This document shows positions 1,377-62,339 of a stretch of 64,000 nucleotides of DNA, piece after piece. The first letter of the stretch is position 1, and every line of letters starts with the position of its first letter. The stretch is taken from assembly GCA_017534885.1 (NCBI GenBank), contig JAFXVR010000029.1, forward strand, positions 6,245 to 70,244, given 5' to 3'. Under the pieces are notes generated by a model. That model saw nothing but the letters and a program-made list of their open reading frames with translations, had not been told where the DNA came from and ran no database searches. Source of the DNA: Clostridia bacterium (GTDB lineage Bacteria; Bacillota; Clostridia; Christensenellales; Aristaeellaceae). The position numbers and the translations under genes were made by a program.

Positions 1377-2774
1377 CTACTTCTTCCCGGCGGGGCAGTG
1401 GTTCCAGGCGTACTCTATGGCGTTCTGGTGATCCTGATTGACCACATTGGTGCCGTGGGTGCGGGAGTTGGTGAAGTGGATGCAGACCTGGCCGGTCATG
1501 CCGTTGTTGGGCAGGGTGTCGCCGTCGGGATTGTGGGGAATGCCGTAGAGGGAGCAGGCGAAGGTGCGCTGGCCGATGGTCACCAGGGAGGGCCGGCGCT
1601 GCCAGAGGTTGCGGTCCTCGATCTCCTGGGGGGTGGAGACGCCGTACATGGCGCAGTAGCGGGCGGTGTCCTCCTTGGTGAGAGGCTCCACATCCGCGTG
1701 ATTGCCGCCGGCGGAGCGCTTCGCCCACCAGACGGTGCCCGTGTACACGTCGTAGACCTTCACGCTGGCGCCCCGCGGCCAGAGCTCCTGGATGCCGCCG
1801 GTGAACCAGTCGATCTTCTCGGCGGGATAGAAGGTCATGTCATAGTTGTCATTGTTGGGATAGGGCTGGGTGCCGAAGAGGGCGTGCTGGGTGGCCGCGT
1901 CCGCCACGCCGGTGGGATTCAGCCCGACGGTCTGCTGGAACTTGATGACCGCCTTTTCCACCGCGCTGGTGAAATTGCTGGTGATGGCGCCGGTGTAGTA
2001 GCCCTGCTCCTTCAGGGCCGTTACCAGCTTTTTCACCGCGTCGCCCGAATCGCCCCGGGCGAGGGTGGTGTAGGTGGCGTAGGGGCGGCTGCCGTCGATG
2101 GTCATCCAGGCGGTGTTGACCTGCCTGGAGGCGCTGCCGTCGCTGACCACCACAAAGACCGCGTAGCGCCCGTACTGGCCCGGGGTGACGGCCACGCGGC
2201 GGTCAGACGAATAGAAGTAGTTGACGGCCTGGCCGGAAGTGTTGTACAGGTTGTAGGCATAGGTGTACACGCCGCTTCCGCCGGAGACGGCCGGCCGGTC
2301 GATGAAGAGGCTTTTCCCGTCGTCGGAGAGGCTCCAGCTGAGCTGGCCCACACTCAGCGGATTGCTGTAGCCGCTGATGCGCTGCCAGCCGATGTTGCGG
2401 GTCTCCTGGCCCCAGGGATCGGTCACGGTGACAAACACGTTGTACAGGCCGTTGTCCCCGGGGGAGACAGCCACGCGGGCGGCGTCGGAGTAGAAATAGT
2501 TGATGGCCGCGCCCTCCGCGCTGTACAGGTTATAGGCGATGGACACCTCCGCGTTGCTCCAGCAGGCCGGGCGGTCGATGAAAAAGCTCTTCCCGTCGGC
2601 GGAGAGCTCCCAGGTCAGGCTGTCCTCCACCCAGAGCTTTTCTCCGCCCTCCTCCAGGTCGCGCAGGAGCTCATCCAGGAGGGAGGGGCTCTCGGCAAAG
2701 GCCGCGCCTGCGATGATGACGCAGGCCAGCAGGGCCAGGGTCCGGATCAGTTTCCGCTGACATCGTGTTGACAT
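1377..2774 (-). CDS. secreted peptidoglycan-binding protein: 2 copies of the window-specific ~85-aa module, a PG_binding_1-like segment and a conserved Cys/His C-terminal domain
   Basis: Track ORF 1377..3113 trimmed to the ATG at 2774 (MSTRCQRKLIRTLALLACVIIAGAAFA signal peptide). The upstream 113 aa are only the translation of repeat element A2. The PG-binding segment reads GDSGDAVKKLVTALKEQGYYTG...FQQTVGLNPTGVAD. The C-terminal ~150 aa are shared with 3233..6157. Confidence 0.75.
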   Translation of the reverse strand: MSTRCQRKLIRTLALLACVIIAGAAFAESPSLLDELLRDLEEGGEKLWVEDSLTWELSADGKSFFIDRPACWSNAEVSIAYNLYSAEGAAINYFYSDAARVAVSPGDNGLYNVFVTVTDPWGQETRNIGWQRISGYSNPLSVGQLSWSLSDDGKSLFIDRPAVSGGSGVYTYAYNLYNTSGQAVNYFYSSDRRVAVTPGQYGRYAVFVVVSDGSASRQVNTAWMTIDGSRPYATYTTLARGDSGDAVKKLVTALKEQGYYTGAITSNFTSAVEKAVIKFQQTVGLNPTGVADAATQHALFGTQPYPNNDNYDMTFYPAEKIDWFTGGIQELWPRGASVKVYDVYTGTVWWAKRSAGGNHADVEPLTKEDTARYCAMYGVSTPQEIEDRNLWQRRPSLVTIGQRTFACSLYGIPHNPDGDTLPNNGMTGQVCIHFTNSRTHGTNVVNQDHQNAIEYAWNHCPAGKK

Positions 2775-6157: not shown

Positions 6158-6390
6158 CACGCCAATCACCTCGCGAAAAATCCTGTCTCCAGGTAATCCA
6201 TGCGCAAAAGGAGCGGACATGTACAGTCCACTCCTATTTTATTGCAAAGTTGTTACGATGTCAAGACAGAATTGTGGATTGGAAGGGAACGGCAGGCGGA
6301 AATCTGAAATATTTACAACCGCATAAGGGTGAATGACGCGGGCGCGGGCAGTTTGCGTCTATATCATTCTTCAGTTTTCAGTATTGTTGA

Positions 6391-7501: not shown

Positions 7502-8341
7502 TTATTCGTTCCGGGGAAAGGCGTACCATTTCCCGTTTTCACCGGCCTGCCTGAGAAAGCGGTCCGCTTCCCCGGCCAGCTCTTCCGTCAGGTCGGTGTC
7601 GATATTGTGTCCGCAGTTGGAATACAGAACCAGCTTGCAGTGCGGCAGGCAGCGGGCCGTCCGCGTCATCAGCTCCGGCGTGCTGATCGGGTCGTCCGTC
7701 CCGCCCAGCATCAGGGTCGGCGTCCGGATGGAGGCCAGGGCTTCGCGCAGCCTCTCCTCCGTGCCGCAGCGCATCAGGGGCCGGCCGTAGTCGATCCGCT
7801 TCTCCCTCTCGTCGGCTTCCGGCAGCCCGGCCAGCCACTCCTCGCGCTTCCGCCTCCGCCTTTCCCTTCCCGGATCGCTGTCGATCGGCGGATCAAAGGG
7901 CGGCGGCTCGGAGATGAGCCCCTGCATCAGCATCTGCCGGTAGGACATCGCGCCCTCCGCGAGGCTGTGCGGGCCCGGCACCACGGCCACAAAGGCTTCC
8001 ACCCGCCCGGGGTGGCGGAGCGCCAGATGCCAGCCCACGCCCGCGCCGTGCGACGCGCCCATGTAGGCGAACCGGCTGATGCCCAGCGCGTCGGCCAGGC
8101 AGATCACATCGTCCGCGAAAACGTCATACCAGGCGTCCCCGTAATCCTCCGTCACATAGGAGGAGGGCGCAAAGCCGCGGAGGGTCATGCAGAGAACCCG
8201 GTATCCCCTTTCGGCCAGCGCCTGCTGCAGTCCGGCGGGGGCAAAACCGGCCTGGGCGGAGAGAACATAACGGTCTCCCGCGCCGTACACGTCATAATGC
8301 AGGCGGATCCCGTCCCCGGTCAGCACACTGCCCGCCGTCAC
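7502..8341 (-). CDS. alpha/beta-fold hydrolase
   Basis: Nucleophile elbow G-A-S-H-G (YMGASHGAGVGW), a late conserved H (SNCGHNIDTD) and a typical length. The GTG start overlaps the stop of 8338..9327 (GTGA), which suggests translational coupling. Confidence 0.7.
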   Translation of the reverse strand: MTAGSVLTGDGIRLHYDVYGAGDRYVLSAQAGFAPAGLQQALAERGYRVLCMTLRGFAPSSYVTEDYGDAWYDVFADDVICLADALGISRFAYMGASHGAGVGWHLALRHPGRVEAFVAVVPGPHSLAEGAMSYRQMLMQGLISEPPPFDPPIDSDPGRERRRRKREEWLAGLPEADEREKRIDYGRPLMRCGTEERLREALASIRTPTLMLGGTDDPISTPELMTRTARCLPHCKLVLYSNCGHNIDTDLTEELAGEADRFLRQAGENGKWYAFPRNE

Positions 8342-9327
8342 GGGTACGCCACCTTCAGTCCGTTGTCCAGACAGTACGCCTCCGCATACGTCCCGCGGCT
8401 GACACAGAAGGTCAGGTCGGGGCTGCAGTCCTCGAGATTGTCGGCGAAATAGGCCTCCATCAGGCTGGCGGGGAGGTTGATCCGGGTCAGGGCGGCGCAG
8501 CCCTCAAAGGCGCCGGCGCCGATGGAATAGACGCCCTCGGGCAGGGTGAGGGTCTTCAGGGAGGCAGCGCCGCAGAAGGCGCCGTCGGCGATGTGTTTGG
8601 TGCCCTCCGGGGCGGTGTAGGAGCGGTTGAGGCGGCCGCAGGGATAGAGGAGGAGGGTCTCCCCGTCCCGGGTGAAGAGGATGCCGCCCGCGGTCTTCAG
8701 GGTGGGGTGGCTGTCGGAGACTTCGACCCTGCGCAGGTTGGAGCAGGTCTCCACATCGCAGACGCCGAAGGCCGTGAGGCTGTCCGGCAGGGCGATGGTG
8801 TTGAGCCCGGCGCAGTTCATCAGCGCGTTGTGGGCGATCCGCTCCGTGCCCTCCTGAATGGTGAAGCCGGTCTCCTGCCGGGCGGCGGGATAGGCGATCA
8901 GGGTCTTCGTCTCCCGGTTGTACAAGCCGCCGTCGACCACCTCAAACACGTCGTTCTGTTCGGGGACGGCGATCTCCTCCAGGTCTGTCAGCTCGCAGAA
9001 GGGGTTCAGGCCGATGTCCCAGTCCCCGATGACGCTGACGTGCCTGGGGAGGGTCACCCGGGTGACCTTCTCCACCGCGATCTGCCACTGGGGGTGGTAG
9101 AACAGCTCGGTCACCAGCTTCCGGTCGATGCGCGTGGGCAAGGCGAAGTCCGCCTCCGTCACGGTGATGCCGTAGAGCATGACGCCGTCGGGGCGGAGCT
9201 TGTACTGGTACAGCCCGTCCTCACTGGTGTAGGCGAGGTTCTCGGGGGTCGCCGCCAGGGCGGGCAGGATGCCGGCGAGCAGCAGCGCCAGCGCTAAGGT
9301 CAGGATCAGGATCATTGCTTTTTTCAT
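8338..9327 (-). CDS. secreted BspA-type leucine-rich repeat (LRR_5-like) protein
   Basis: AAGGAG RBS and signal peptide MKKAMILILTLALALLLAGILPALA. LRR units include IALPDSLTAFGVCDVETCSNLRRV and LTLPEGVYSIGAGAFEGCAALTRINLP. Paralog of 6521..7486. Confidence 0.75.
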   Translation of the reverse strand: MKKAMILILTLALALLLAGILPALAATPENLAYTSEDGLYQYKLRPDGVMLYGITVTEADFALPTRIDRKLVTELFYHPQWQIAVEKVTRVTLPRHVSVIGDWDIGLNPFCELTDLEEIAVPEQNDVFEVVDGGLYNRETKTLIAYPAARQETGFTIQEGTERIAHNALMNCAGLNTIALPDSLTAFGVCDVETCSNLRRVEVSDSHPTLKTAGGILFTRDGETLLLYPCGRLNRSYTAPEGTKHIADGAFCGAASLKTLTLPEGVYSIGAGAFEGCAALTRINLPASLMEAYFADNLEDCSPDLTFCVSRGTYAEAYCLDNGLKVAYP

Positions 9328-11431: not shown

Positions 11432-11693
11432 TCCGGGGCTGTCGCCCATTCTCCGCTGGAAACGCCCCACTGGGGCCTTTCCCGGGCGCTCCGAATCCCC
11501 CCGCACACGCTCGTCCTGCGGCAGGTTTGTTCTTGGGGGTATCTTCGCTGGTTTTGGGGCTTGCCCGCTGCAAAAGACGGGGCGGTCGGGCTGGTTTCGC
11601 TCAGGTGGCTTGGTTCGCGAACCTTCGTTGGGGTTTGCTCCTTTTGTTACTTGAGCAGCTTTCAAGGAGGTCAGCGCCTGCCGCTCACCCCGA

Positions 11694-11990
11694 CCCTCCG
11701 CAGGAGCGCTTTCAAGGGGTCAGCGGGCCACGGCTCACCCCGGCCCTCCGCAGGAGCGCTTTCAAGGGGTCAGCGGGCCACGGCTCACCCCCGACCCTCC
11801 GCAGGAGCGCTTTCAAGGGGTCAGCGGGCCACGGCTCACCCCGGCCCTCCGCAGGAGCGTCTTTCAAGGGATCAGCGGGCCACGGCTCACCCCGGCCCTC
11901 CGCAGGAGCGTCTTTCAAGGGATCAGCGGGCCACGGCTCACCCCGGCCCTCCGCAGGAGCGTCTTTCAAGGGGGTCTCTTTCCTGTTCGG
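11694..11990. repeat. tandem array, about six copies of a 50-51-bp unit (terminal module of family A)
   Basis: The unit CCCTCCGCAGGAGCG(C/T)(C)TTTCAAGGG(G/A)TCAGCGGGCCACGGCTCACCCCG(G/A)C starts at 11694, 11744, 11795, 11845, 11896 and 11947. There are no unique spacers. Confidence 0.85.
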
Positions 11991-12236: not shown

Positions 12237-13229
12237 ATGATGAGAAAGCTTTTGTGCATGCTGCTCAGCCTGTGCCTGATTCTCGGCTCGTCGGTGATGA
12301 TCCGCGCGGAAGCGCCGGTCAGCCTGGATGAGCTGATGGAGGATATCGAGAGCGAGGCGGAGCTCGACAAGGATCTGTCCGTCGCGCCGCTGAAGTGGGA
12401 GCTCAGCGCCGACCGCCGCTGCGTGCACATCACCCGGCCCACGGTCTACGGCGCCGTGCACTACACCGTGGCCTTCAACATTTACAGGGAAGACGGCACC
12501 TCGGTGAGCTATTTCTACGCCTATGAGGACAAGGTGACCTTCACCGCGGGCACCTCCGGCGTCTTCAACGTGTTTGTGGTGGTCACCGACACGGACACCG
12601 GCGCCACCGACACCCAGAACACCGGCTGGCTCTCCATGATCGGGCCCATCGAGCCGCTGATGGTGGGCACCGCGGTCTGGGAGATCTCCTCGGACAAGTC
12701 GACCATCACTGTCAACAAGCCCACTGTCCTGGGCGGCAGCGGCGATTACAAGGTCGCCTATGTCTGCTATGACGACCAGGGCGGTTTCGTGGACGCCCTC
12801 TACAGCGAGGCGGCCTCTGTTGACTTCACCCCCGGCTATGAGGGGAAATTCATTGTGTTCATCACCGTCACCGACAACCAGACCGGCGAGACCTATGCCC
12901 AGAACACCGGCTGGAACAAGCTGGGCGGCACCGATCCCGAGCCCTACACCCCCATGACCGTCGGCACCCTCTCCTATGAGGTCAGCGCCGACGGCAAGTC
13001 CATCTTCATCGACCGCCCGGACATCGCCGGCGGCAGCGGCCAGGCCATCGTCGCCTACAACCTCTATGACGACGCCGGCAATGTGGTGCTCTACTTCTAC
13101 TCCGAGGAGATCCGCGTCGCCATGACCCCCAAGGCCACCGGCACCTTCTGCGCCTTCGTCACCGTCACCGACATCATCACCCGCGAGAACAGCACCCAGA
13201 ATACCGGGTGGCAGGCGCTGACGGAGTGA
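12237..13229 (+). CDS. secreted protein made of three copies of the window-specific ~85-aa module
   Basis: Start trimmed to the ATG at 12237 (TAAGGAGGAA RBS; signal peptide MMRKLLCMLLSLCLILGSSVMIRA). The acidic helix VSLDELMEDIESEAELD follows, then 3 modules (LKWELSADRR.., AVWEISSDKS.., LSYEVSADGKS..). Confidence 0.75.
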   Translation: MMRKLLCMLLSLCLILGSSVMIRAEAPVSLDELMEDIESEAELDKDLSVAPLKWELSADRRCVHITRPTVYGAVHYTVAFNIYREDGTSVSYFYAYEDKVTFTAGTSGVFNVFVVVTDTDTGATDTQNTGWLSMIGPIEPLMVGTAVWEISSDKSTITVNKPTVLGGSGDYKVAYVCYDDQGGFVDALYSEAASVDFTPGYEGKFIVFITVTDNQTGETYAQNTGWNKLGGTDPEPYTPMTVGTLSYEVSADGKSIFIDRPDIAGGSGQAIVAYNLYDDAGNVVLYFYSEEIRVAMTPKATGTFCAFVTVTDIITRENSTQNTGWQALTE

Positions 13230-13281
13230 GCGGGGAGAAGCTCTGAGTTGGGAGTGAGGAGTGAGGAGTTTTCAGCACTCC

Positions 13282-13455
13282 GGCCCTCCGCAGGAGCGTC
13301 TTTCAGGAGGTCTGGAGGCGCTTTCTCGCAGAAAGCGTCCCCAGCGCAGTAACCATATAATCCTCCCCCTTCCCCCGTGCGCGGGGGAAGGGGGAGAAGT
13401 TAGTTGACTGCGCTCCTGCGGAGGGCCGGAAGCCCCCCTGAAGACACTCCCGCGG
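13282..13455. repeat. family A element (copy A5, carries both terminal inverted modules)
   Basis: The left end GGCCCTCCGCAGGAGCG and the right end CGCTCCTGCGGAGGGCC are reverse complements, and both internal hairpins are present. Confidence 0.8.
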
Positions 13456-13543: not shown

Positions 13544-13664
13544 TGATTCGGATGTCAAAAGGCCGCTTTCATGAACTGAGCCACGACTGGTTGTGGAAGA
13601 CAGCGGAAATCACCACAACCAGTCGTGGCTCCAAGGTTGAAAGCGCCCTTTTGTCACCCTTACC
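13544..13664. repeat. family B element (copy B2)
   Basis: GATTCGGATGTCAAAAGGCCGCTTTCATGAACTGAGCCACGACTGGTTGTGGAAGACAGCGGAAATCACCACAACCAGTCGTGGCTCCAAGGTTGAAAGCGCCCTTTTGTCACCCTTACC. It has a perfect 19-bp inner stem. Confidence 0.9.
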
Positions 13665-13728: not shown

Positions 13729-15918
13729 ATGAAGAAATTCCTCGCCGCCCTGACCGCCCTGATTCTGCTCTTCACCTGCTGTCTGGCGGAGACAGCGGTC
13801 GACCTGGACGCGCTGCTGGACGAAATCGAAGCGGCGGCTGATGAAGAGATCGAGAAGATCACGGACGCGATCATCTTCACCAAACCCAGCTTGACGGCAA
13901 CCTTCTACACCACCTCCGAGGAATGGAACAGCGAAAGCAACCACATCGCGAATTATCCTGCTCTGCACAGCCTGCTCGGGGGTGAACCCACGGCTGTCTG
14001 CGAGGACGAAAGCGAGTATTTCGACATTGAGATTCGTACCAGCGATGTGGCCTATCTCGCGACCTATAATATCGCTTTGGTCCTGACGCCCAAGGGGAAG
14101 CTTCCGGAGGCGGCGGTGGGCGTCCACACCTTCACCGTCCGGGTGGACTGGGGCGGACTGACCGCGTCCTTTGAGGTGCGCGCCGAGGTGCTCTCCTATG
14201 ACGGGCCGGCGCTGACCGCCATCACCAACCCGGATACCATTGCCGCGAAAACCAATGAGCGCTTCTTTCTGACCATCACGACGGATCCGGAAGAGTGGTC
14301 CTATCCCGGCATGGAAATCCATTATGGCGTCCAGATCGGTTACCCCGACATGCTGTATGTCAGCAGCAGCGCCCCCGCAGCTCTTGGGCCTGTCCGCGGC
14401 TTCTGCGTTTCCAAACCGGGCGAATACAAGGTGACCCTCATCGCGAAAGCGTGTATGCCTGACGCTCCAAATTGCGTCTTTGATGTCGAAAAGACGGTGA
14501 CGATCACAGCGACGGAAGGCACTGAAACGGAGGGCGTCGTCCTGAGTCTGGAGGAGATGAACAACACGCTCTACGCGCCCTTTTCGCTGAACACCATCGG
14601 CAGCCTGGAAGTCATGAACTTCGCAGAGCTGGTTGAGCAAGGGCTGACGGAGCCCACCATCACCTTCACCCTCGGAGAGGGCTGCCCGGAGCTGGTTTCC
14701 AATTATATGTCTTACATCACGCCCGTGATGAAGGTCGCGATGATCGGGGTCAATTTCAAGCTGCCCGAGGGCGTGAAAACCATTCCCATGGAAATGGCCG
14801 GCGACTACAGCGCCGTCATGCATGTCACCTACGGCGAATTGACCGCTGACCTTCCCATCCGCTTCTCCATCGGGAAATGCGACGCGCCGATGCCCTTCCT
14901 GGTGGGCGTGCCGGAGGCGGTGACCATCAAAGCCGGCGAGCCCTATATCCTGACCCTGAATCCTTATCCCGCTGACTGGTCCTGGCCGGGCATGTACCTG
15001 CTCTACACCTTCACAGACAGCTCCCAGGTGATTTATTACCAACCTCTCGGGGACAACCGCTATGTCCTGAACTGCGGCATTCCGGGTGAATATGACGCGC
15101 TGGTCAACATTGATATCTACTCCGACGGCCTCTATGTCCAGTGCTACCACCAGATCAGCTATCCCTTCCATCTGACCGTGGTGGACGGCGACGCCCCCGA
15201 ACCCACCCCGACGGATGAGCCCGAGCCCACCGATGAACCCGAACCCACGCCCACCGGCGAGCCTGAACCGACGGATGAGCCCGAACCCACCGATGAACCC
15301 GAACCCACCCCCACGGACGAGCCCGAGCCCACCGGTGAGCCCACCGAGCCGCTGACCATCGCGGAGACCGAGGCGGTGCACGAGATCAGCGAGGACGGCA
15401 AGTCCATCTACATCGACAAGCCGACCATCAGCGGCGGCGTCGCGCCCTACACCATCGCCTACAACTGCTATGACGCTGAGTCTCAGCCCGTCAATTACTA
15501 CTATTCCGACGACGACCGCACCGCCATGACCCCCGGCTACAACGGCCGCTTCAACGTGTTTGTGGTGGTCCGTGACAGCGCCGGCGCGGAAGCCCAGATC
15601 GACACCGGCTGGCTCGACCTGACCGGCTATGAGACCCTTCCGCTGAAGGTGGAGGAAGAAGCCGCCGTCTGGGAGCTCAGCGAGGACGGCAAGTCGATCT
15701 ACATCAACAAGCCCACCATCAGCGGCGGCACCGGCACCTACACCATCGCCTACAACTGCTACGACGCGGAGTCGAAGCCCGTCAACTATTACTACTCCAG
15801 CGACGACCGCACCGCCATGACCCCCGGCTACGCAGGCAGATTCTGCGTGTTTGTGGTGGTGAGCGACGGGAAAGAGGAAGTGACCATCAATACCGGATGG
15901 GTGGAGATGGGTGAATAA
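13729..15918 (+). CDS. secreted multi-domain surface protein: two novel ~230-aa internal modules, a PE/PT linker and two ~85-aa modules
   Basis: Start trimmed to the ATG at 13729 (AAGGAGG RBS; MKKFLAALTALILLFTCCLA). The upstream part of the track ORF is the translation of repeat B2. The acidic helix is VDLDALLDEIEAAADEE. The linker is PEPTPTDEPEPTDEPEPTPTGEPEP... The C-terminal modules closely match those of 17329..19416. Confidence 0.75.
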   Translation: MKKFLAALTALILLFTCCLAETAVDLDALLDEIEAAADEEIEKITDAIIFTKPSLTATFYTTSEEWNSESNHIANYPALHSLLGGEPTAVCEDESEYFDIEIRTSDVAYLATYNIALVLTPKGKLPEAAVGVHTFTVRVDWGGLTASFEVRAEVLSYDGPALTAITNPDTIAAKTNERFFLTITTDPEEWSYPGMEIHYGVQIGYPDMLYVSSSAPAALGPVRGFCVSKPGEYKVTLIAKACMPDAPNCVFDVEKTVTITATEGTETEGVVLSLEEMNNTLYAPFSLNTIGSLEVMNFAELVEQGLTEPTITFTLGEGCPELVSNYMSYITPVMKVAMIGVNFKLPEGVKTIPMEMAGDYSAVMHVTYGELTADLPIRFSIGKCDAPMPFLVGVPEAVTIKAGEPYILTLNPYPADWSWPGMYLLYTFTDSSQVIYYQPLGDNRYVLNCGIPGEYDALVNIDIYSDGLYVQCYHQISYPFHLTVVDGDAPEPTPTDEPEPTDEPEPTPTGEPEPTDEPEPTDEPEPTPTDEPEPTGEPTEPLTIAETEAVHEISEDGKSIYIDKPTISGGVAPYTIAYNCYDAESQPVNYYYSDDDRTAMTPGYNGRFNVFVVVRDSAGAEAQIDTGWLDLTGYETLPLKVEEEAAVWELSEDGKSIYINKPTISGGTGTYTIAYNCYDAESKPVNYYYSSDDRTAMTPGYAGRFCVFVVVSDGKEEVTINTGWVEMGE

Positions 15919-17176: not shown

Positions 17177-17296
17177 GATTCGGATGTCAAAAGGCCGCTT
17201 TCATGAACTGAGCCACGACTGGTTGTGGAAGACAGCGGAAATCACCACAACCAGTCGTGGCTCCAAGGTTGAAAGCGCCCTTTTGTCACCCTTACC
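17177..17296. repeat. family B element (copy B4)
   Basis: Identical in its core to B2. It is a direct repeat of B3, 72 bp away, between two convergent gene ends. Confidence 0.9.
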
Positions 17297-17328: not shown

Positions 17329-19416
17329 CTATTCCCCCAGATCATACCACCCGGTATTGATAATGATCTGCTCCTCCCCATCGCTCACCACCACAAACAC
17401 ACAGAATCTCCCCGAGTACCCCGGTGTCATGGCGGTGCGCCACTCATCGGAATAGTAATAGTTCACAGGATTGGAATCCGTGTCATAGCAGTTGTAGGCG
17501 TAGGTGTACTGGCCGGTGCCGCCGCTGACTGTGGGGCGGTTGATGAAGATGGAGCGGCCGTCGGGGCTGATCTCGCTGACAGCCACCTGCTCCTGCACGG
17601 TCAGGGGCTGGGCCTCATAGCCGGTCAGGTCGAGCCAGCCGGTGTCGATCTGCACCTGGGCCCCGGCGCTGTCCCTCACCACCACGAACACATTGAAGCG
17701 GCCGTTGTACCCGGGGGTCATGGCGGTGCGGGCGTCGTTGGAATAGTAGTAGTTGACGGGATTGGAGTCCGCGTCGTAGCAGTTGTAGGCGATGGTGTAG
17801 GGCGCGACGCCGCCGCTGATGGTCGGCTTGTCAATGAAGATGGACTTTTTGTCCGGGCTGATCTCGTGCACGGCCTCGGTCTCGGTGACGGTCAGGAGCT
17901 CCAGCTCTTCGGTATCGCCCTCCGTCACGGTGACTTTCACATACTTGACGGTGTAGGCCAGGGCAATGTAGCCGTCCTCCGTCTCGGCGTAGATTTGCAT
18001 GGAGACGCCGAAGCGGAATTCTCCGCACTTGCGGAAGACCACCTTGTAGGACATGTCGCCCCACTCGGAGGAGAGATCATTCACGATGCAGGAATAGGGG
18101 TCGTCCTCCGGCGCGTGATAGTTTGCGGTAAGCTGAATGTCCGGGTGCGACCAGTCCGGCGGATCGGGCTCCACGTCCACAAACCAGCTTTCACCCAGCT
18201 CCAGCTGAATGGCGTCGGGCACACCGCCCACGCCCAGCTCTCCCAGGGGAACGCCGTCATAGGGCAGGACGGTCATCCGGACCGGGATCTCGGCCCTTGC
18301 GCTGCCCCAGGTGAGGGTCAGCACGTCCTCATAGGTACCGGCGCTGTCGGCCGGCATGGTCCAGTAATCATCCATCCCTTCCCAGCGGGGACTCACAAAG
18401 AGGATGCTGGAGCTTTCCACATTGGCTTCAAACCAGATTTTGCCGCCGGTGCCGCGGAAGCTGGCGGTCATCTGCCCGCCATAAGCTTCCCGCAGGTTCT
18501 GGCCGTTGAGGATCTCAATATAGTGGTCATGGGCGTCCTGGGCGGTCTCGTAGGTCGTCCAGCTCAGGGCGTCCCGGCGCAGGATGAACTCGTTTTCGAG
18601 GGGCTTGTCCGCGACCTCCACATGTGCGTCCTGGCTGACTGTGAAGGCGATCCTGTCCGTGCCGTTGTACGTGCTCCAGGCCAGGAGGGAGAAGGTGAGG
18701 TCATAGCTGCCCGGCTTGGTGAACCAGAAGCTGATCTTCCGGTTGTCGACCCATTCGGTTTCCACATCGTCGTAGGCGCTGCTGTCCTCAAAGCCGACAC
18801 TGCTGTACAGCGTGAGGCCATCGAAAGCCCAGTCCGGCGGATTGGGGGCCACATCGACCTCCCACTTTTCGCCCACGGTCAGGTTCACCGATTCCGGCAC
18901 GCCGCTCAGTCCGGTGGGCATGCCGCAGTCGTACACCGTGGCGATGATGGGCAGGACTCGGGTGAGGGGGCCCCAGGTGATGGTGATCTCCGCAAAATGC
19001 TCGCCCGCGGACTCCCGGGGGAGGTTCTGGCCCTCCTGCCAGCGGTCGCTCACCAGCCTGGCCTCGATAAAGCACCTTTCCAGGTCCGGGTTGACGCGGA
19101 CAGCCACATCAAACTCGAAGAAGCCGCCCGTTCTGGTGACGGTGACGGTGGGCTCCCCGCCGTACGCCTTCTTCAGCGCGGTGTAGTTGGTGATCTCGTC
19201 GCCCTGCAGATAGTTTTCGTCCGACGTGGTGAAGAAGACGTCGTCCATGGACCCGCGGAGCAGGTAGATCTGATCTGCGCTGCGCTTGAGGTCCTCCTCG
19301 GCCTCCGCCTCAATCTCGTCCATCAGGGCGTCCATCAGGGAGTTTTCCGCCGCGGCAAAGGCGGTCAGCGCCATCAGCAGCAGCATGGAAAGAATCAGCG
19401 CCAGCAGTTTCTTCAT
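17329..19416 (-). CDS. secreted multi-domain surface protein, inverted paralog of 13729..15918
   Basis: AAGGAG RBS and signal peptide MKKLLALILSMLLLMALTAFAAA. The acidic helix is SLMDALMDEIEAEAEED. It has the same architecture as 13729..15918 but lacks the PE/PT linker. The last ~190 aa are nearly identical to that gene. Confidence 0.75.
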   Translation of the reverse strand: MKKLLALILSMLLLMALTAFAAAENSLMDALMDEIEAEAEEDLKRSADQIYLLRGSMDDVFFTTSDENYLQGDEITNYTALKKAYGGEPTVTVTRTGGFFEFDVAVRVNPDLERCFIEARLVSDRWQEGQNLPRESAGEHFAEITITWGPLTRVLPIIATVYDCGMPTGLSGVPESVNLTVGEKWEVDVAPNPPDWAFDGLTLYSSVGFEDSSAYDDVETEWVDNRKISFWFTKPGSYDLTFSLLAWSTYNGTDRIAFTVSQDAHVEVADKPLENEFILRRDALSWTTYETAQDAHDHYIEILNGQNLREAYGGQMTASFRGTGGKIWFEANVESSSILFVSPRWEGMDDYWTMPADSAGTYEDVLTLTWGSARAEIPVRMTVLPYDGVPLGELGVGGVPDAIQLELGESWFVDVEPDPPDWSHPDIQLTANYHAPEDDPYSCIVNDLSSEWGDMSYKVVFRKCGEFRFGVSMQIYAETEDGYIALAYTVKYVKVTVTEGDTEELELLTVTETEAVHEISPDKKSIFIDKPTISGGVAPYTIAYNCYDADSNPVNYYYSNDARTAMTPGYNGRFNVFVVVRDSAGAQVQIDTGWLDLTGYEAQPLTVQEQVAVSEISPDGRSIFINRPTVSGGTGQYTYAYNCYDTDSNPVNYYYSDEWRTAMTPGYSGRFCVFVVVSDGEEQIIINTGWYDLGE

Positions 19417-26517: not shown

Positions 26518-26534
26518 TTTTCCTCCCGGTGATT

Positions 26535-26620
26535 GGGGGGAAGGGAAAACCCCTTCTTGAAAGAAGATGTTTTCCCTTCCCCCCAAACCCCCTATCCTTT
26601 TCCTCAAGAACTTTTACCGA
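26535..26620. repeat. family D long-hairpin element (copy D2), directly upstream of the large membrane-protein start
   Basis: GGGGGGAAGGGAAAACCCCTTCTTGAAAGAAGATGTTTTCCCTTCCCCCC followed by AAACCCCCTATCCTTTTCCTCAAGAACTTTTACCGA. It has the same orientation relative to the downstream gene as D1. Confidence 0.85.
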
Positions 26621-27816: not shown

Positions 27817-27986
27817 GCTTGTCCCTCCGCTTGTCATCATTTGGGCATACAGCCACAAGTATATTATAGCCGGAAGTGGTGGGGAATGCAAGGCGGGGGG
27901 AAGGAATGAATAATCAATACTGAAGACTGAAGACTGAAGAATTTAAGCGGCTGAGGTTGGAGGCTGAAGGAAGCTGAAGCCATCCC

Positions 27987-40857: not shown

Positions 40858-43770
40858 ATGAAGCGTCTGTTTTGCCTGCTGATGGCGCTCTCTCTGCTGA
40901 CCTTCACCGTTTCCGCCGAGGCGCCCCTGAGCCTGGACAGCCTGATGCTGGAAATCGAGGAGGAGGTGAAGGAGCTGTCCGTGGACGCGGTGTCCTTCGA
41001 GATCAGCGAGGACGGCCAGTCCATCTTCATCGATCGGCCCGAAGTCACCGGGGCGGAGGAGTACACCATCGCCTACAATATCTATGACGCGGACTCCAAC
41101 CCCGTCAACTATTTCTATTCCTTAGAGGAGCGCGTGGCCGCCACCCCGGGCTACGGCGGTCTCTTCAACGTGTTCGTGGTGGTCACGGACACCGCCACCG
41201 GGGAGCAGGACATCCAGAACATCGGCTGGCAGACCCTCTTATGGCCGCTGGCCGACAGCCTGGAGGTGGGCCGGGCCACCTATGAGGTCAGCCCGGACCG
41301 GCAGTCCGTGTTTGTGGACAGGCCGGCCATCGCCTGCGCCTCGGGCTCGGTGACCATCGCCTACAATATTTATGACGCCAACTCCAATCCGGTCAACTAC
41401 TTCTACTCCACCCAGAAGCGGGTGGCGGCCACGCCCGGGTATGACGGGCGGTTCAATGTGTTCATCGTGGTGACGGACACGGGCACCGGCGAGCAGGACG
41501 TGCAGGACATCGGGTGGATCGATCTGGGCGGGGAGGCCCAGCCCACGCCCACGGCCACGCCCACGCCCACCCCGACACCTACGCCTACCCCCACCCCGAC
41601 GCCCACGCCCACGGCCACGCCCACGCCTACGCCGACACCAACCCCGACACCCACGCCCCAGACCTGGCCGGCGGTGGTGAACGGCATCCGCTACGAGCTG
41701 GTGAACGGCCGGGTCACGGTGACAGGCTTTAACGGGGGCGTGACCGGGCTGCAGTTTGAAGACGAGATCTACGGCCGGCCGGTGGAGGTCATCGGCGACA
41801 AGGCCTTTGAGGGCAGATCAGTCCTCAGCGGCTCTGTGGTCCTACCCTCCGGGCTCAGGGAGATCGGCGTCGGGGCGTTCTGCAACTGCACAGGCCTGAC
41901 CGGCGGCCTCATCATCCCCGACGGGGTGGTTTCCATCGACGACAGCGCCTTCGAGGGGTGCAGGGGCCTGACCTCCCTGCGCCTCGGCGCGGGCCTGAAA
42001 ACCATCGGCGCCAAGGCCTTCTATGCGCACTTGAACAGCAGAACCAACGAAAGGGAAACGAGCCTGACCGGCGGCCTCATCATCCCCGACGGGGTGGTTT
42101 CCATCGGCAACAGCGCCTTTGAGGGGTGCAAGGGCCTGACCGGCGGCCTCATCATCCCCGACAGCGTGGAGACCATCGGCAACAGAGCCTTTGAGGGGTG
42201 CAGGGGCCTGACCTCCCTGCGCCTGGGCGCGGGCCTGAAAACTATTGGCTATAACGCCTTCTACTACACCGGCCTGACCGGCACCCTGGATATCCCCGGC
42301 AGCGTGGAGACCATCGGCATCTGGGCCTTCGGCAGCTGCACCGGTCTGACCGGCGTCAGCTTCAGCGAGGGCCTGAGGGAGATCGGCGCCGGAGCCTTTG
42401 GCTGGTGCAAGCAGCTGTCCGGTCACCTCACCTTCCCCTCCACCCTGGAGACGATCGGCAACATGGCTTTCCAGTATTGTACAGGCATCACGGAGGTGAC
42501 GCTGAACGAGGGCCTGCAGACGGTCGGCGACAGTGCTTTTGATCACTGCGAAAAGCTGAGCGGAACGCTGAAGACGCCGGGCAGCCTGCAGTCCATCGGC
42601 GCCAATGCTTTCAGCTACACCGGCCTGACCGGCGTCAGCTTCAGCGAGGGTCTGAAGGAGGTCGACGGCTTCAGCAACTGCGAAAACCTGTCCGGTCTTA
42701 TCACCTTCCCCTCCACTGTAGAGAGCGTCAAAGACAACGCTTTCTCCGGATGCGCCGGCATCACGTGGGTGACGCTGAACGAGGGCCTGAAGGCCATCGG
42801 CGACAGCGCGTTTCAGGCCTGCACGGGCCTGACCGGAGTCAGCTTCAACGGCACCCTGCGGAAGATCGGCGCCTCCGCGTTTGCCGACTGCACAGGGCTG
42901 AGCGGCAGCCTGAACCTGCCCGGCAGCCTGAAGGAGCTGGGCGGGAAAGCGTTCAGGAACTGCGCGGGCCTGACCGGCGGCCTGAAGCTGCCCGGCAGCC
43001 TGAAAAAGCTCGGCGCGTACGCCTTTGAGAACTGCGCGGGCCTGACCGGCGGCCTGAAGCTGCCCGGCAGCCTGACAGAGCTGGGCGAGTACGCCTTCAG
43101 CGGCTGTACCGGCTTTAACGGCGCCCTGACCCTTTCCTCCGGCATGGAAAATGTTCCCAAATACGCCTTCGCGGGCTGCGGCTTTACCGCGCTGAAGCTG
43201 AACGAGGGCCTGCAGACCATCGGAGAAGGCGCCTTCTCCGGCTGCGCCGATATGGCCGGCGCGCTGACCCTGCCCTCCACCCTGACCGACATCGGGAAAA
43301 CGGCCTTCAAGGACTGCTCGGGCTTCACCGGCACCCTGACCATCCCCGAGGGCATGACCCGGGTGAACCCGAGCGTCTTTGAGAACGCCAGCGGCCTGAC
43401 CGCCCTGAGCCTGCCGGACACGCTGACCGCCGTCGACGCCAGCGCCTTCCGGAACTGCACGGGTCTGACCGGCGAGCTGCGCCTCCCGTACTCGGTGAGC
43501 TGGATCAACAACGAGGCCTTCTCCCACTGCACGGGCCTGACCGGCGAGCTCTACCTCCCGGACTCGGTGAAATGGGTCAACGACGAGGCCTTCTCCCACT
43601 GCTCCGGCTTCACCTCCATGCGCCTCAGCCGGAACACGCAGTCCATCGGCAGCTATGCCTTCGCTTACTGCACCGGCATGACCGGCACCGTGACCATCCC
43701 CTACAGCTGTACCGTCAACCCCAACGCTTTCGACGAAACCCCCGTCACCCTCGTGCGAAACCCGATCTGA
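40858..43770 (+). CDS. 970-aa secreted surface protein: two ~85-aa modules, a TP linker and a long BspA-type LRR array
   Basis: Signal peptide [20 protein letters not shown] and acidic helix [17 protein letters not shown]. It has 2 modules, a (TP)n linker and then more than 25 LRR_5-like units (..[19 protein letters not shown]..). Confidence 0.8.
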
Positions 43771-43828: not shown

Positions 43829-45190
43829 ATGAAGCGACCATTTTCCCTCCTGCTGGCCCTCTGCCTGCTGCTGACGCTCCCGGTTTCCGCCGAGGCGCCC
43901 CTGAGCCTGGACAGCCTGATGCTGGAAATCGAGGAGGAGGTGAAGGAGCTGTCCGTGGACGCGGTGTCCTTCGAGATCAGCGAGGACGGCCAGTCCATCT
44001 ACATCGACCGGCCGGCGGTGACCGGGCCGGAGGAGTACACCATCGCCTACAATATCTATGACGCGGACTCCAACCCCGTCAACTATTTCTATTCCTTAGA
44101 GGAGCGGGTGGCCGCGACGCCGGGCTACGGCGGGCTCTTCAACGTGTTTGTGGTGGTCACGGACACCGCCACCGGGGAGCAGTGCGTTTCCAACATCGGC
44201 TGGCAGACCCTGTCCTGGCCGCGGGCCAACAGCCTGACGGTCGGCAAGGCCACCTTCGAGGTCAGCCCGGACCGGCAGTCCGTGTTTGTGGACAGGCCGG
44301 CCATCGCCTGCGCCTCGGGCTCGGTGACCATCGCCTACGATATTTATGACGCCAACTCCAATCCGGTCAACTACTTCTACTCCACCCAGAAGCGGGTGGC
44401 GGCCACGCCCGGGTATGACGGGCGGTTCAATGTGTTCGTCGTGGTGACGGACACGGGCACCGGCGAGCAGGACGTGCAGGACATCGGCTGGCAGACCTTA
44501 GGCGACCCGGTTCCGCCGGTGCAGGAGGACGACCCGTCGGACTACGACTACAGGGCCTTTGGCGACTATGTGGTGATTTACGGCTACCACGGGAGCGGGG
44601 TGGATATCGTCATTCCCTCCTATATCGAAGGCCAGCCGGTCCGGGAGATCGGCGATCACGCCTTCGCCGGCAACGAGAAGCTGACCGGCCATGTTACCCT
44701 GCCCTCCACCCTGGAGATCATCGGCTGGGAGGCTTTCAACGGATCCAGCCTCACGGGGGTGACGCTGAACGAGGGCCTGAAGGTCATCGACCACAGCGCC
44801 TTCAGCTTCTGCGAGCATCTGGCCGGCCATCTCGCCTTCCCCTCCACCTTGGAGAAAATCGATAACAACGCTTTTGATTGCTGCGTCGGCCTCACGGGGC
44901 TGACCTTCAACGAGGGGCTGAAGAGCATCGGCCAGTGCGCCTTCAACTGGTGCTGGGATCTGTCCGGCCATCTCACCTTCCCCTCTTCCTTCGAGGAAAT
45001 CGGCGACTACGCGTTCAATGAGTGCGTCAGCCTCACGGGCCTGACCTTCAACGAGGGCCTGATGAGGATCGGCGCCTACGCCTTCCTGGACTGCCAGGGC
45101 CTGACCGGCACCGTGACCATCCCCCAGGGCTGCGACGTGGGCGAAGGGGCCTTCGACCTGACTGAAGTCAACGTTGTGTACAAAAACTGA
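43829..45190 (+). CDS. 453-aa secreted surface protein: two ~85-aa modules and a short BspA-type LRR array
   Basis: The N-terminal ~220 aa are almost identical to 40858..43770, with the same signal peptide and helix. The C-terminal LRR_5-like units read [31 protein letters not shown]. Confidence 0.8.
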   Translation: MKRPFSLLLALCLLLTLPVSAEAPLSLDSLMLEIEEEVKELSVDAVSFEISEDGQSIYIDRPAVTGPEEYTIAYNIYDADSNPVNYFYSLEERVAATPGYGGLFNVFVVVTDTATGEQCVSNIGWQTLSWPRANSLTVGKATFEVSPDRQSVFVDRPAIACASGSVTIAYDIYDANSNPVNYFYSTQKRVAATPGYDGRFNVFVVVTDTGTGEQDVQDIGWQTLGDPVPPVQEDDPSDYDYRAFGDYVVIYGYHGSGVDIVIPSYIEGQPVREIGDHAFAGNEKLTGHVTLPSTLEIIGWEAFNGSSLTGVTLNEGLKVIDHSAFSFCEHLAGHLAFPSTLEKIDNNAFDCCVGLTGLTFNEGLKSIGQCAFNWCWDLSGHLTFPSSFEEIGDYAFNECVSLTGLTFNEGLMRIGAYAFLDCQGLTGTVTIPQGCDVGEGAFDLTEVNVVYKN

Positions 45191-62236: not shown

Positions 62237-62339
62237 CTCACTCCTCCACGGACAACCAATACAATGATTAGTCAGCGTAAACCTACGAAGAGTCTGTCTT
62301 CTGCGTCCTTGCGCGCAGCGACATATAATCTCAAATACA

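What the first reader, a model, noticed from the sequence alone, without database searches (positions are those of the whole stretch)
12237..13229. Unassigned ~85-aa module repeated 13 times across six secreted proteins
The translations share a module with this approximate pattern: W-E-[LI]-S-x-D-[GK]-K-S-[IF]-[FY]-I-[DN]-[RK]-P-x-[IV]-x-G-G-x-G-x-Y-x-[IV]-A-Y-N-x-Y-D-x(4-6)-V-N-Y-[FY]-Y-S-x(3)-R-x-A-x-T-P-G-Y-x-G-[RL]-F-x-V-F-V-V-V-x-D-x(8-12)-G-W.

It occurs 3 times in 12237..13229. It occurs twice each in 1377..2774, 13729..15918, 17329..19416, 40858..43770 and 43829..45190.

The module is combined with three unrelated partner regions:
- PG_binding_1 plus a Cys/His domain
- BspA-type LRR arrays
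- novel ~230-aa modules

It therefore behaves as a shuffled, family-defining surface module. The strand-like periodicity and the G-x-F-x-V-F-V-V-V-x-D segment resemble PKD or Y_Y_Y-type Ig-like beta-sandwiches. I cannot place it in a named family from the sequence alone.
Basis: partly seen in the sequence, partly recalled or inferred. Interest (0 to 1): 0.7.

Follow-up and report, generated by a model that had tools for sequence, protein, structure and literature searches.

The report
Divergent Y_Y_Y Ig-like surface-protein module
The repeated ~88-residue module is real: it is a very divergent, lineage-restricted branch of a known Ig-like domain family (Pfam Y_Y_Y), and an uncultured ruminant-gut Clostridia bacterium uses it, usually in tandem pairs behind a conserved acidic N-terminal helix, as the shared chassis of at least 26 secreted proteins with different functional heads.

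Summary
There are 13 copies of an 83-91 aa module in exactly six ORFs, with per-copy E-values of 1e-34 to 1e-44, and none elsewhere in the window.

Pfam and NCBIfam do not hit the module even at E<=10. It is still not a new fold or an orphan:
- AlphaFold gives a compact 7-8-strand beta-sandwich (pLDDT 90-98).
- An exhaustive profile search of 1.84 billion proteins finds about 61 close relatives, then runs into tandem arrays of the Pfam Y_Y_Y domain (PF07495).
- Profile-profile alignment gives 95% probability (E 1.6e-8).
- The reciprocal Y_Y_Y-repeat HMM hits all six proteins exactly at the modules.

What is distinctive:
- The subfamily is almost confined to one ruminant-gut Clostridia MAG lineage, with at least 26 paralogues in one genome.
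- It comes as exactly two tandem copies in 52 of 65 representatives.
- It sits at either protein end, separated from the variable heads (LRR_5, caspase, SBP, DUF6273, PG_binding_1) in C and E by Pro/Thr- or Pro/Glu-rich linkers.
- It is coupled to a conserved acidic helix (LDxLMxEIE) directly after the signal peptide.

My inference, not shown, is that the pair is a common tethering or binding unit, analogous to CWB2 or SLH families, rather than a passive spacer. Interest is modest.

The parts
12237..13229 (+). Gene B, 330 aa: signal peptide, acidic leader helix and three modules, with no other domain
   Evidence: It is identical to NCBI 'MAG: hypothetical protein IKP40_06435 [Clostridia bacterium]'.
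12303..12380 (+). Leader helix of B (AEAPVSLDELMEDIESEAELDKDL)
   Evidence: leader HMM, E 3e-10
12381..12647 (+). B module 1
   Evidence: (iE 1.7e-34)
12660..12932 (+). B module 2
   Evidence: (iE 8.3e-35)
12957..13226 (+). B module 3
   Evidence: (iE 4.2e-37)
1377..2774 (-). Gene A, 465 aa: signal peptide, leader, two modules, PG_binding_1 and an unassigned 160-aa C-terminal domain
2628..2699 (-). Leader helix of A
   Evidence: leader HMM, E 9e-7
2367..2630 (-). A module 1
2088..2354 (-). A module 2
13729..15918 (+). Gene C, 729 aa: signal peptide, leader, two unassigned units of about 225 aa, a Pro/Glu/Thr-rich linker and two modules at the extreme C-terminus
13783..13839 (+). Leader helix of C
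   Evidence: leader HMM, E 6e-3; motif DLDALLDEIE read
15361..15630 (+). C module 1
15652..15915 (+). C module 2 (the sequence modelled)
17329..19416 (-). Gene D, 695 aa: same architecture as C and 37% identical to it overall
19294..19356 (-). Leader helix of D
   Evidence: leader HMM, E 8e-6
17617..17886 (-). D module 1
17332..17595 (-). D module 2
40858..43770 (+). Gene E, 970 aa: signal peptide, leader, two modules, a Pro/Thr linker and a long BspA-type LRR_5 array
40912..40980 (+). Leader helix of E
   Evidence: leader HMM, E 5e-8
40978..41247 (+). E module 1
41263..41535 (+). E module 2
43829..45190 (+). Gene F, 453 aa: signal peptide, leader, two modules and LRR_5
   Evidence: the two-module model
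43886..43954 (+). Leader helix of F
   Evidence: leader HMM, E 2e-8
43952..44221 (+). F module 1
44237..44509 (+). F module 2

Best explanation
**Shown.** The module is an FN3/Ig-like beta-sandwich of about 88 residues. It is a very divergent, lineage-restricted branch of the Y_Y_Y domain superfamily (Pfam PF07495, E-set Ig-like) and lies outside the reach of the current Pfam model.

In an uncultured ruminant-gut Clostridia bacterium it defines a paralogous family of at least 26 secreted proteins. The family signature is:
- a Sec signal peptide;
- a conserved acidic amphipathic helix (consensus SLDxLMxEIE) at the predicted mature N-terminus;
- a tandem pair (rarely three) of modules.

The pair sits either directly after the leader or at the extreme C-terminus. 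In C and E it is set off from the variable heads by Pro/Thr- or Pro/Glu-rich linkers. The heads include BspA-type LRR, caspase-like peptidase, solute-binding domains, DUF6273 and PG_binding_1. The signal-leader-pair cassette is duplicated and recombined as a unit.

**Inferred.** The tandem pair is not a passive spacer. It is the common functional unit that ties all these proteins to one shared partner on the cell surface or in the matrix, either a wall or capsule glycopolymer or a surface protein. It would then work like the CWB2, SLH or choline-binding repeat families of other Firmicutes, with the variable heads doing the specific binding or catalysis. The role of the leader helix is unresolved; it could be a sorting or assembly element.
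For: **Identity of the module:**
- AF2 model of one module: pLDDT 90.3, eight strands.
- AF2 model of leader plus two modules: pLDDT 92.8, pTM 0.78, with the modules at 97-98.
- Foldseek returns only generic FN3/PKD/Ig sandwiches.
- The profile of the 13 copies, searched against 1.84e9 representative proteins, gives 61 hits below 1e-30. It then reaches multi-repeat proteins that Pfam calls Y_Y_Y, for example P0065 (Y_Y_Y E 2.8e-68, 10 stretches).
- hhalign of 128 family modules against 33 Pfam-verified Y_Y_Y repeats: probability 95.5%, E 1.6e-8, 54 columns. The shared motif is GG..PY.YAY.IY...(T)P(G).G.F.V.V.V.D.
- The reciprocal Y_Y_Y-repeat HMM hits all six window proteins at the module positions, E 4e-11 to 1e-5 at Z=1e6.

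**Family and architecture:**
- Partner domains across 65 members: LRR_5 in 26, Peptidase_C14 in 4, DUF6273 in 2, plus Bmp, SBP_bac_8, Flg_new, PG_binding_1 and CarboxypepD_reg. None has SLH, CWB2 or LPXTG.
- Exactly two copies in 52 of 65. The pair is N-terminal in 34 and at the exact C-terminal end in 11.
- 21 of 34 clusters looked up carry accessions of one MAG (MBR6027584-MBR6029892, IKP40_ tags), plus five further window proteins.
- Among family representatives with a signal peptide, 43 are hit by the leader HMM and three more show the motif by eye. The leader is absent from the seven secreted proteins without the module in the window and in L006.
- E and F share 92% DNA identity over 692 nt, covering the RBS through module 2, and then diverge. 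C and D share 82% over the 557-nt pair.

**Arguments for a binding or tether role (inference):**
- Gene B is leader plus three modules and nothing else, and P0010, P0033 and P0042 are a leader, a short (150-200 aa) insert and the pair at the C-end. A spacer with nothing to space makes no sense.
- In C, D, P0007, P0041, P0046 and P0051 the pair is at the free C-terminal end; in C it follows a long Pro/Glu/Thr-rich linker.
- A family this large, with a constant repeat and variable heads, is the design of known Firmicute wall-anchoring families (my own knowledge of the C. difficile Cwp/CWB2 and SLH families).
- An LCP-family enzyme is encoded nearby at 26641-27891, which fits a monoderm wall carrying secondary polymers.
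Against: **Against filing it as a Pfam Y_Y_Y member.** PF07495 does not hit any of the 13 modules, even at E<=10. Single-domain scores in the cross-searches are weak (10-27 bits). Significance comes from repeated, position-consistent hits and from the profile-profile comparison.

**Against the tether idea:**
- There is no direct evidence of any ligand.
- The modules are strongly acidic: pI 4.05-5.9 in the window and a median of 4.46 over 128 family copies. Many wall-binding modules are basic.
- The two solute-binding-protein fusions (P0008, P0018) are not next to ABC permease genes. The argument that an SBP must be tethered therefore cannot be made.
- FN3/Ig-like tandems in bacterial surface proteins are very often just stalks.
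- AF2 does not dock the leader helix onto the modules (pLDDT about 60), so the leader-module coupling remains unexplained.
Confidence: 0.6

Rival explanations
1. Passive stalk or spacer. The tandem Ig-like pair only adds length and rigidity, projecting the functional heads away from the membrane or wall. It is conserved simply because the 5' cassette (promoter, signal peptide, first domains) is a convenient secretion-competent unit that is copied.
For: - Generic FN3/Ig tandem geometry.
- In 34 of 65 members the pair sits between the N-terminus and the head.
- The acidic pI gives no obvious electrostatic binding surface.
- The 5' cassette is duplicated as a unit between E and F.
Against: - Module-only proteins exist (gene B), as do proteins that are only a leader, a short insert and the pair.
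- Eleven representatives have the pair at the free C-terminal end; in C it comes after a flexible linker.
- The copy number is fixed at two.
- Sequence conservation is high (64% mean column identity, many invariant polar and aromatic positions) across paralogues whose heads are unrelated.
Confidence: 0.25
2. The module is itself an adhesin or carbohydrate-binding module aimed at an external target, such as plant fibre, host mucin or other microbes, rather than at the producer's own surface.
For: - It is rich in tyrosine and aromatic residues (11-16%).
- It is separated from the heads by a Pro/Thr- or Pro/Glu-rich linker in C and E, as in CBM-containing enzymes.
- The habitat is the ruminant gut.
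- Foldseek hits include RbmA, a glycan-binding tandem-FnIII matrix protein.
Against: - No CAZyme catalytic domains occur among the partners.
- The heads are mostly protein-binding LRRs that would already supply external adhesion.
- There is no similarity to any CBM family in Pfam.
Confidence: 0.12
3. A genuinely new domain family or fold with no relationship to known families, as 'unassigned' would imply.
For: There are no direct hits in Pfam, NCBIfam or PDB sequences. The best Foldseek E-value is only 3e-3 for one module.
Against: - Profile and profile-profile links to Y_Y_Y hold in both directions.
- The same MAG encodes an intermediate form, P0050, with 'GGTAPY' repeats.
- The fold is a standard Ig/FN3 sandwich.
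Confidence: 0.03

Closest known systems
Pfam Y_Y_Y domain (PF07495; E-set/Ig-like clan). It is found after the beta-propellers of Bacteroides hybrid two-component sensors and as tandem arrays in clostridial proteins.
   Same: - The central motif is the same: GG..(P)Y.Y.Y...Y...(T)P(G).Y.[FV].V.V.D.
- The predicted fold is the same beta-sandwich.
- Both are used in tandem arrays in Firmicute extracellular proteins, including autolysin-like proteins such as P0068 and P0081 (Glucosaminidase + Y_Y_Y x4-7 + Amidase_3).
   Different: - The module is not detected by the Pfam HMM, even at E<=10.
- It has its own conserved N-terminal strand motif (E-[IL]-S-x-D-x-x-S-[IV]-[FY]-[IV]-x-[RK]-P) and C-terminal N-x-G-W.
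- The copy number is fixed at two.
- It is coupled to an acidic leader helix.
- It is restricted to one uncultured lineage.
PKD (PF00801/PF18911) and FN3 domains
   Same: The beta-sandwich is of similar size. PKD1 of Vibrio PrtV and Epp, human polycystin PKD1 and many FN3 domains are among the Foldseek hits (TM 0.5-0.69).
   Different: Foldseek E-values are only 7e-3 to 3e-2. There is no Pfam PKD or fn3 hit on the modules. The profile searches lead to Y_Y_Y rather than to PKD as the nearest family.
C. difficile Cwp family (three tandem CWB2 repeats plus variable domains) and SLH-domain protein families. These are functional analogues only, cited from my own knowledge.
   Same: A large paralogous family in one genome (at least 26 here; 29 Cwp proteins in C. 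difficile by my recollection). A constant block of 2-3 tandem repeats sits at either the N- or the C-terminus. The functional domains vary. No other anchor is present.
   Different: The fold is unrelated (Ig-like sandwich rather than the CWB2 or SLH folds). No wall-polymer binding has been shown. The modules are acidic. The extra leader helix has no counterpart in those families.
Vibrio cholerae RbmA (a biofilm matrix scaffolding protein made of two tandem FnIII domains)
   Same: Gene B (leader plus three modules only) is, like RbmA, a small secreted protein made of nothing but tandem FN3-like sandwiches. RbmA is among the top Foldseek hits for the pair.
   Different: TM-scores are only about 0.25 and sequence identity about 13%. 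No homology is implied.
BspA-type LRR (LRR_5) surface proteins of gut and oral anaerobes
   Same: 26 of 65 family members, including E and F, carry LRR_5 arrays as their head.
   Different: LRR_5 is only one of more than 10 partner domains. LRR_5 proteins without the module also occur in the window (6521-7486 and 8338-9327).

Membership tests
Pfam Y_Y_Y (PF07495) | Match to the Pfam HMM above its gathering score (26.6 bits) | tested here: not met
   No Y_Y_Y hit on the six proteins at E<=1, and none on the 13 single modules at E<=10.
Pfam Y_Y_Y (PF07495) | Homology to bona fide Y_Y_Y repeats by profile methods, in both directions | tested here: met
   - The module profile hits Pfam-verified Y_Y_Y arrays: P0065 at E 1e-24, P0068 at 4e-21.
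- hhalign gives probability 95.5%, E 1.6e-8, and 94.2% against the P0065 repeats alone.
- The Y_Y_Y-repeat HMM hits all six window proteins at the module positions.
Pfam Y_Y_Y (PF07495) | Conserved tyrosines and the P-G-x-Y...V.V.D core motif | tested here: met
   The aligned columns show GG..PY.YAY.IY and TPGY.G.F.VFVVV.D against GG..PYSYAYNIYKD and PT.PG.YK...VKD of P0065.
Pfam Y_Y_Y (PF07495) | Ig-like/FN3-like beta-sandwich fold | tested here: met
   AF2 models have pLDDT 90-98 and 7-8 strands. Foldseek returns only Ig/FN3/PKD sandwiches. A direct superposition on a solved Y_Y_Y domain (for example in Bacteroides HTCS sensor structures) could not be run.
PKD domain (PF00801/PF18911) | Pfam HMM match, or the WDFGDG-type signature | tested here: not met
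   There is no PKD hit at E<=10. The signature is absent from alignment A1. Only weak structural similarity exists (Foldseek E about 1e-2).
Known Gram-positive wall-anchoring repeat families (SLH, CWB2, choline-binding, GW, LysM, LPXTG) | Presence of the corresponding Pfam domain or sorting signal | tested here: not met
   None appears among the Pfam families matched by the 65 family members or by the six window proteins. The only exception is PG_binding_1 in A.
Known Gram-positive wall-anchoring repeat families (works-like claim) | Non-covalent binding of the repeat block to a wall polymer or surface layer | not testable with these tools
   Only architectural logic is available. The acidic pI differs from many such modules.
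Bacterial lipoproteins | Lipobox [LVI][ASTVI][GAS]C at the end of the signal peptide | tested here: not met
   Reading the six N-termini directly finds no lipobox. The c-regions are AxA-type (VSA, AFA, IRA, CLA, AAA) and are followed by Glu.

The most novel reading that the evidence does not exclude
The signal peptide, acidic LDxLMxEIE helix and tandem Y_Y_Y-like pair together form a previously unrecognised, lineage-specific cell-surface display system of an uncultured Clostridia clade. In this reading the Ig-like pair non-covalently anchors about 1% of the proteome to a wall glycopolymer or surface layer. The leader helix acts as a dedicated sorting or assembly signal, or as a trans-docking peptide that links family members to each other. 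This would be a new class of Gram-positive anchoring module built on an Ig-like fold.
Probability: 0.25. Interest if true: 0.6.

Novelty: new variant of a known kind. Interest (0 to 1): 0.32.

Why it matters
The result gives a structural and evolutionary assignment to a module that standard annotation leaves blank. NCBI calls these proteins "hypothetical" or names them only after their LRR or SBP head.

It also shows that one uncultured ruminant-gut Clostridia lineage has put at least 26 secreted proteins on a single shared chassis. If the tandem pair proves to be the tether for this surface proteome, it would add an Ig-like (Y_Y_Y-type) module to the small list of Gram-positive non-covalent anchoring repeats. 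It would also give the widespread but functionally blank Y_Y_Y domain its first testable role outside sensor kinases.

If the pair is only a stalk, the finding is an ordinary lineage-specific expansion. Its practical value would then be a better HMM for annotation.

Tried and rejected
- **Direct family scans.** Pfam and NCBIfam scans of the six proteins, and of each module alone at E<=10, give only sub-threshold noise: ZirS_C, DUF4992, VEGFR1-3_N_Ig-like. These weak hits were not used as evidence.
- **PDB sequence search.** The module profile finds nothing at E<=10.
- **Foldseek.** There is no specific structural neighbour. The best E is 3e-3 for one module, and TM is 0.25-0.37 for the pair. 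The GH2 beta-glucuronidase hits are just that enzyme's Ig-like linker domain.
- **GTDB genome scan.**
  - The first attempt failed because alignment A1 was too diverse.
  - With A3, 16 pattern matches were found but none was confirmed. The subfamily is therefore absent from 185,579 species representatives at that stringency.
  - A MutS scan shows the nearest representative is only 68% identical.
- **JGI metagenome scan.** Only 2 loci were found.
- **Solute-binding-protein test.** I tested whether the SBP fusions prove surface tethering. P0008 (Bmp) and P0018 (SBP_bac_8) are not next to ABC permease genes, and the upstream side of P0018 is cut by the contig end. The result is inconclusive, so the argument was dropped.
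- **Leader docking.** The AF2 model leaves the leader helix at pLDDT about 60 and undocked, so packing onto the modules in cis is not supported.
- **Programmed recombination or inversion between C and D.** Their convergent module pairs are only 82% identical and no recombinase is nearby. Rejected.
- **C-terminal domain of A.** The only hits in PDB sequences are spurious haemagglutinin matches, E>=0.02.
Full report
**1. Observation**

The window has 63% G+C, and real genes stand out by a GC3 of 0.85-0.93. I seeded a jackhmmer search with one copy of the module and ran it against all six-frame stop-to-stop pieces of the window. It returns 13 domains with independent E-values between 1.7e-34 and 2.2e-44, in exactly six ORFs and nowhere else:
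- B, 12237-13229(+): three copies.
- A, 1377-2774(-): two copies.
- C, 13729-15918(+): two copies.
- D, 17329-19416(-): two copies.
- E, 40858-43770(+): two copies.
- F, 43829-45190(+): two copies.

The 13 copies align over 88-91 residues with 64% mean column identity and 11 invariant positions.

All six proteins begin with a classical Sec signal peptide with an AxA-type cleavage site and no lipobox. This was read directly from the sequences. No dedicated predictor was available.

- PG_binding_1 in A and LRR_5 (BspA-type) in E and F.
- In C and D, an internally duplicated unit of about 225 residues with no Pfam match. In D the two halves are 30% identical over 226 aa, E 3e-28.

**2. What the module is**

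Direct library scans are negative.
- Pfam and NCBIfam give no hit above noise for the module, neither in the whole proteins nor for each module scanned alone at E<=10.
- A profile search of PDB sequences finds nothing.

The module nevertheless folds confidently.
- AlphaFold2 on the 13-sequence alignment gives pLDDT 90.3 and pTM 0.80, with eight beta strands.
- A 27-sequence alignment of leader plus two modules gives pLDDT 92.8 and pTM 0.78, with both modules at 97-98.
- Foldseek against the PDB returns only generic Ig-like sandwiches, and none is close. The hits are FN3 domains, PKD domains and the Ig-like domain of GH2 enzymes (best E 3e-3, TM up to 0.69 for one module). For the pair they are tandem FN3 proteins such as NCAM, RbmA, phage tail-tip proteins and Sap S-layer domains (TM 0.25-0.37).

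The decisive link comes from sequence profiles. An exhaustive hmmsearch of the 13-copy profile against 1.84 billion representative proteins gives 334 hits at E<=1e-3.
- 61 hits are below 1e-30 and form the close family.
- The tail consists of large multi-repeat proteins that match profile positions of about 22-76, many times each.

Pfam annotates those tail proteins as Y_Y_Y (PF07495) arrays:
- P0065: E 2.8e-68, 10 stretches.
- P0068: E 1e-45, 7 stretches, flanked by Glucosaminidase and Amidase_3.
- P0076: E 2.6e-44.
- P0081: E 3.4e-27.

I built an independent alignment of 33 repeats from these four Pfam-verified proteins and compared it with 128 non-identical family modules.
- hhalign gives 95.5% probability, E 1.6e-8, over 54 columns.
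- Against the P0065 repeats alone it gives 94.2%.
- The shared signature is visible by eye. The module reads GG(x)2PY-T-I-AYN-x-YD ... TPGY-x-G-R-F-x-V-F-V-V-V-x-D. P0065 reads GGRRPYSYAYNIYKD ... PTxPGxYKxxxxVKD.
- In the reciprocal direction, an HMM of the Y_Y_Y repeats hits all six window proteins exactly at the module coordinates. Full-sequence E-values are 4e-11 to 1e-5 for a nominal database of one million.

The same MAG also encodes an intermediate form. P0050 (IKP40_04350) has 'GGTAPY' repeats and weaker module scores.

I conclude that the module is a divergent branch of the Y_Y_Y / E-set Ig-like superfamily that the present Pfam model does not reach. That model covers only the central 65 positions.

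**3. The family and its anatomy**

NCBI names identify the source as 'MAG: Clostridia bacterium', locus tags IKP40_. Its contigs come from the XIEF21 ruminant gastrointestinal metagenomes.

Lineage:
- The closest MutS in 185,579 GTDB species representatives is only 68% identical. It comes from an uncultured Clostridia MAG from a human gut. The next matches are about 60% identical.
- A pattern scan of that genome collection for the module found no relative.
- 241 million JGI metagenome records gave two loci.

The subfamily is therefore rare and essentially confined to this lineage.

Expansion within the lineage:
- 21 of the 34 clusters I could look up carry accessions from one GenBank genome, in the block MBR6027584-MBR6029892.
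- With the five other window proteins, that is at least 26 paralogues among roughly 2,500 genes.

Partner domains across the 65 representatives:
- LRR_5 in 26.
- Peptidase_C14 in 4.
- DUF6273 in 2.
- One each of Bmp, SBP_bac_8, Flg_new, PG_binding_1, CarboxypepD_reg/Big_2 and fn3.
- No SLH, CWB2, LysM or LPXTG anchor in any member.

Module arrangement:
- 52 of 65 have exactly two modules.
- In 34 the pair immediately follows the leader.
- In 9 it follows a 150-200-residue insert.
- In 11 it ends at the very C-terminus.

In E a Pro/Thr run, and in C a Pro/Glu/Thr run, separates the pair from the head.

**4. A second, coupled element: the leader helix**

The six window proteins carry a conserved acidic amphipathic helix directly after the predicted signal-peptidase site. 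Its consensus is (A)E-x-x-(L/V)-S-L-D-x-L-M-x-E-I-E. Among the 65 family representatives, 43 with a signal peptide are hit by the leader HMM and three more (P0022, P0039, P0044) show the motif by eye.
- It is present whether the modules are N-terminal or 500 residues away at the C-terminus, as in C and D.
- It is absent from the seven secreted proteins without the module that I could inspect in the same genome. These are the LRR_5 proteins at 6521-7486 and 8338-9327, the SH3_3 protein at 3233-6220, the LCP protein, the protein at 57411-58442, and two proteins in L006.
- A few divergent members lack it: P0006, P0050, P0051, P0053 and P0054.
- AF2 predicts a short helix at pLDDT of only about 60, not packed on the modules.

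Its role is therefore open.

**5. Evolutionary behaviour**

E and F are neighbours. They share 92% nucleotide identity over 692 nt, starting 28 nt upstream of the ATG and ending at the end of module 2. After that, only short LRR patches match. C and D are convergent genes and share 82% identity over the 557 nt that encode the pair. The signal-leader-pair block therefore spreads as a cassette that is joined to different 3' parts. I found no recombinase or invertible-element signature nearby.

**6. How it most likely works (inference)**

Three facts argue that the pair has a function of its own rather than being a passive stalk.
- Gene B is nothing but leader and modules, and P0010, P0033 and P0042 are only a leader, a short insert and the pair.
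- In 11 representatives the pair is the free C-terminal end; in C it comes after a flexible linker. A spacer would have nothing to space there.
- The copy number is fixed at two, and many polar and aromatic positions are invariant across paralogues whose heads are unrelated.

The overall design is that of the known Firmicute wall-anchoring families: Cwp/CWB2 in C. difficile, SLH proteins and choline-binding proteins (my own knowledge). It consists of one constant block of 2-3 tandem repeats at either end, dozens of paralogues, variable heads and no other anchor. I therefore favour a common tethering or binding role towards a shared partner on the cell surface or in the matrix.

Evidence against this reading:
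- The modules are strongly acidic: pI 4.05-5.9 in the window, with a family median of 4.46.
- Nothing identifies a ligand.
- The two solute-binding-protein fusions are orphans rather than parts of ABC operons, so they do not force a tethering argument.

My estimates are about 0.45-0.5 for tether or binding to the cell's own surface or matrix, about 0.25 for pure spacer, and about 0.12 for an outward-directed adhesin or CBM.

**7. Comparison with known families, and novelty**

Membership in Pfam Y_Y_Y fails the operational HMM test. It passes the homology, motif and fold tests. I file the module as a divergent sister subfamily within the Y_Y_Y/E-set superfamily, not as a PF07495 member sensu stricto and not as PKD.

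The new elements are the subfamily itself, its fixed tandem-pair usage, its coupling to an acidic leader helix, and its large expansion in one uncultured lineage. That makes it a new variant of a known kind.

For a specialist this is a useful annotation and a reasonable hypothesis for a new surface-display chassis, but not a surprise. Lineage-specific expansions of Ig-like surface modules are common in gut Firmicutes. Interest is about 0.3.

**8. Limits**
- No coordinates of the models were accessible, so surface conservation could not be mapped.
- No signal-peptide predictor was available.
- The full MAG could not be scanned, so the paralogue count is a lower bound.

Noticed in passing
window 11653-11973 (intergenic, upstream of gene B): A 51-bp tandem repeat with 6.3 copies and 94% matches. 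Each unit contains an imperfect palindrome, GGGGTCAGC...GCTCACCCC. Five near-exact copies of the 26-nt core occur only here in the window. There are no spacers, so it is not CRISPR-like.
   Followed up: partly
window 13278-13296 and 13410-13428 (intergenic between B and C): The motif CCGGCCCTCCGCAGGAGCG also occurs inside the 51-bp tandem repeat. Here it appears once forward and once as its reverse complement about 130 bp away, flanking a GGGGGAAGGGGGAG / CTCCCCCTTCCCCC palindrome. This may be a small repetitive intergenic (REP/MITE-like) element family.
   Followed up: no
window 13628-13664 and 17260-17296: A 37-nt exact direct repeat, seen by blastn. One copy lies just upstream of gene C and the other just downstream of gene D.
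   Followed up: no
window 13870-15180 (C) and 17900-19290 (D, minus strand): C and D each contain two copies of an unassigned unit of about 225 residues. It has the conserved motif (D/Y)P(E/A)(E/D)WS(Y/W)PGM and no Pfam match. D repeat 1 and repeat 2 are 30% identical over 226 aa (E 3e-28).
   Followed up: partly
window 1377-1880 (C-terminal 160 aa of gene A); possibly also the C-terminus of 3233-6220: A Cys/His-containing domain follows PG_binding_1. It has no Pfam, NCBIfam or PDB sequence match and is probably an uncharacterised wall-active domain. The neighbouring 995-aa protein (3233-6220) has four SH3_3 domains plus PG_binding_1.
   Followed up: partly
window 6521-7486 and 8338-9327 (minus strand): Two small secreted LRR_5 (BspA-type) proteins lack both the module and the leader helix. 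They flank an alpha/beta-hydrolase gene (7502-8341). The same LRR_5 + hydrolase pairing recurs next to P0018 in locus L090.
   Followed up: no
L006 4766-6805 and 1-3891: In the same MAG, the Bmp-module fusion protein P0008 lies next to several genes. These are an RHS/TEN_YD-shell protein, two DUF6273 proteins, a 2355-aa Flg_new/LRR_5 protein and an IS66 transposase fragment. Together they look like a variable surface- or toxin-protein island.
   Followed up: no
window 57411-58442 and 61841-62933 (minus strand): These ORFs have much lower GC3 (0.39-0.47) than the rest of the window (0.85-0.93). This suggests recently acquired DNA.
   Followed up: no
window 24343-26607 (minus strand): A 754-aa multi-pass membrane-like protein with no Pfam match lies next to an LCP-family (LytR_cpsA_psr) gene at 26641-27891.
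   Followed up: no
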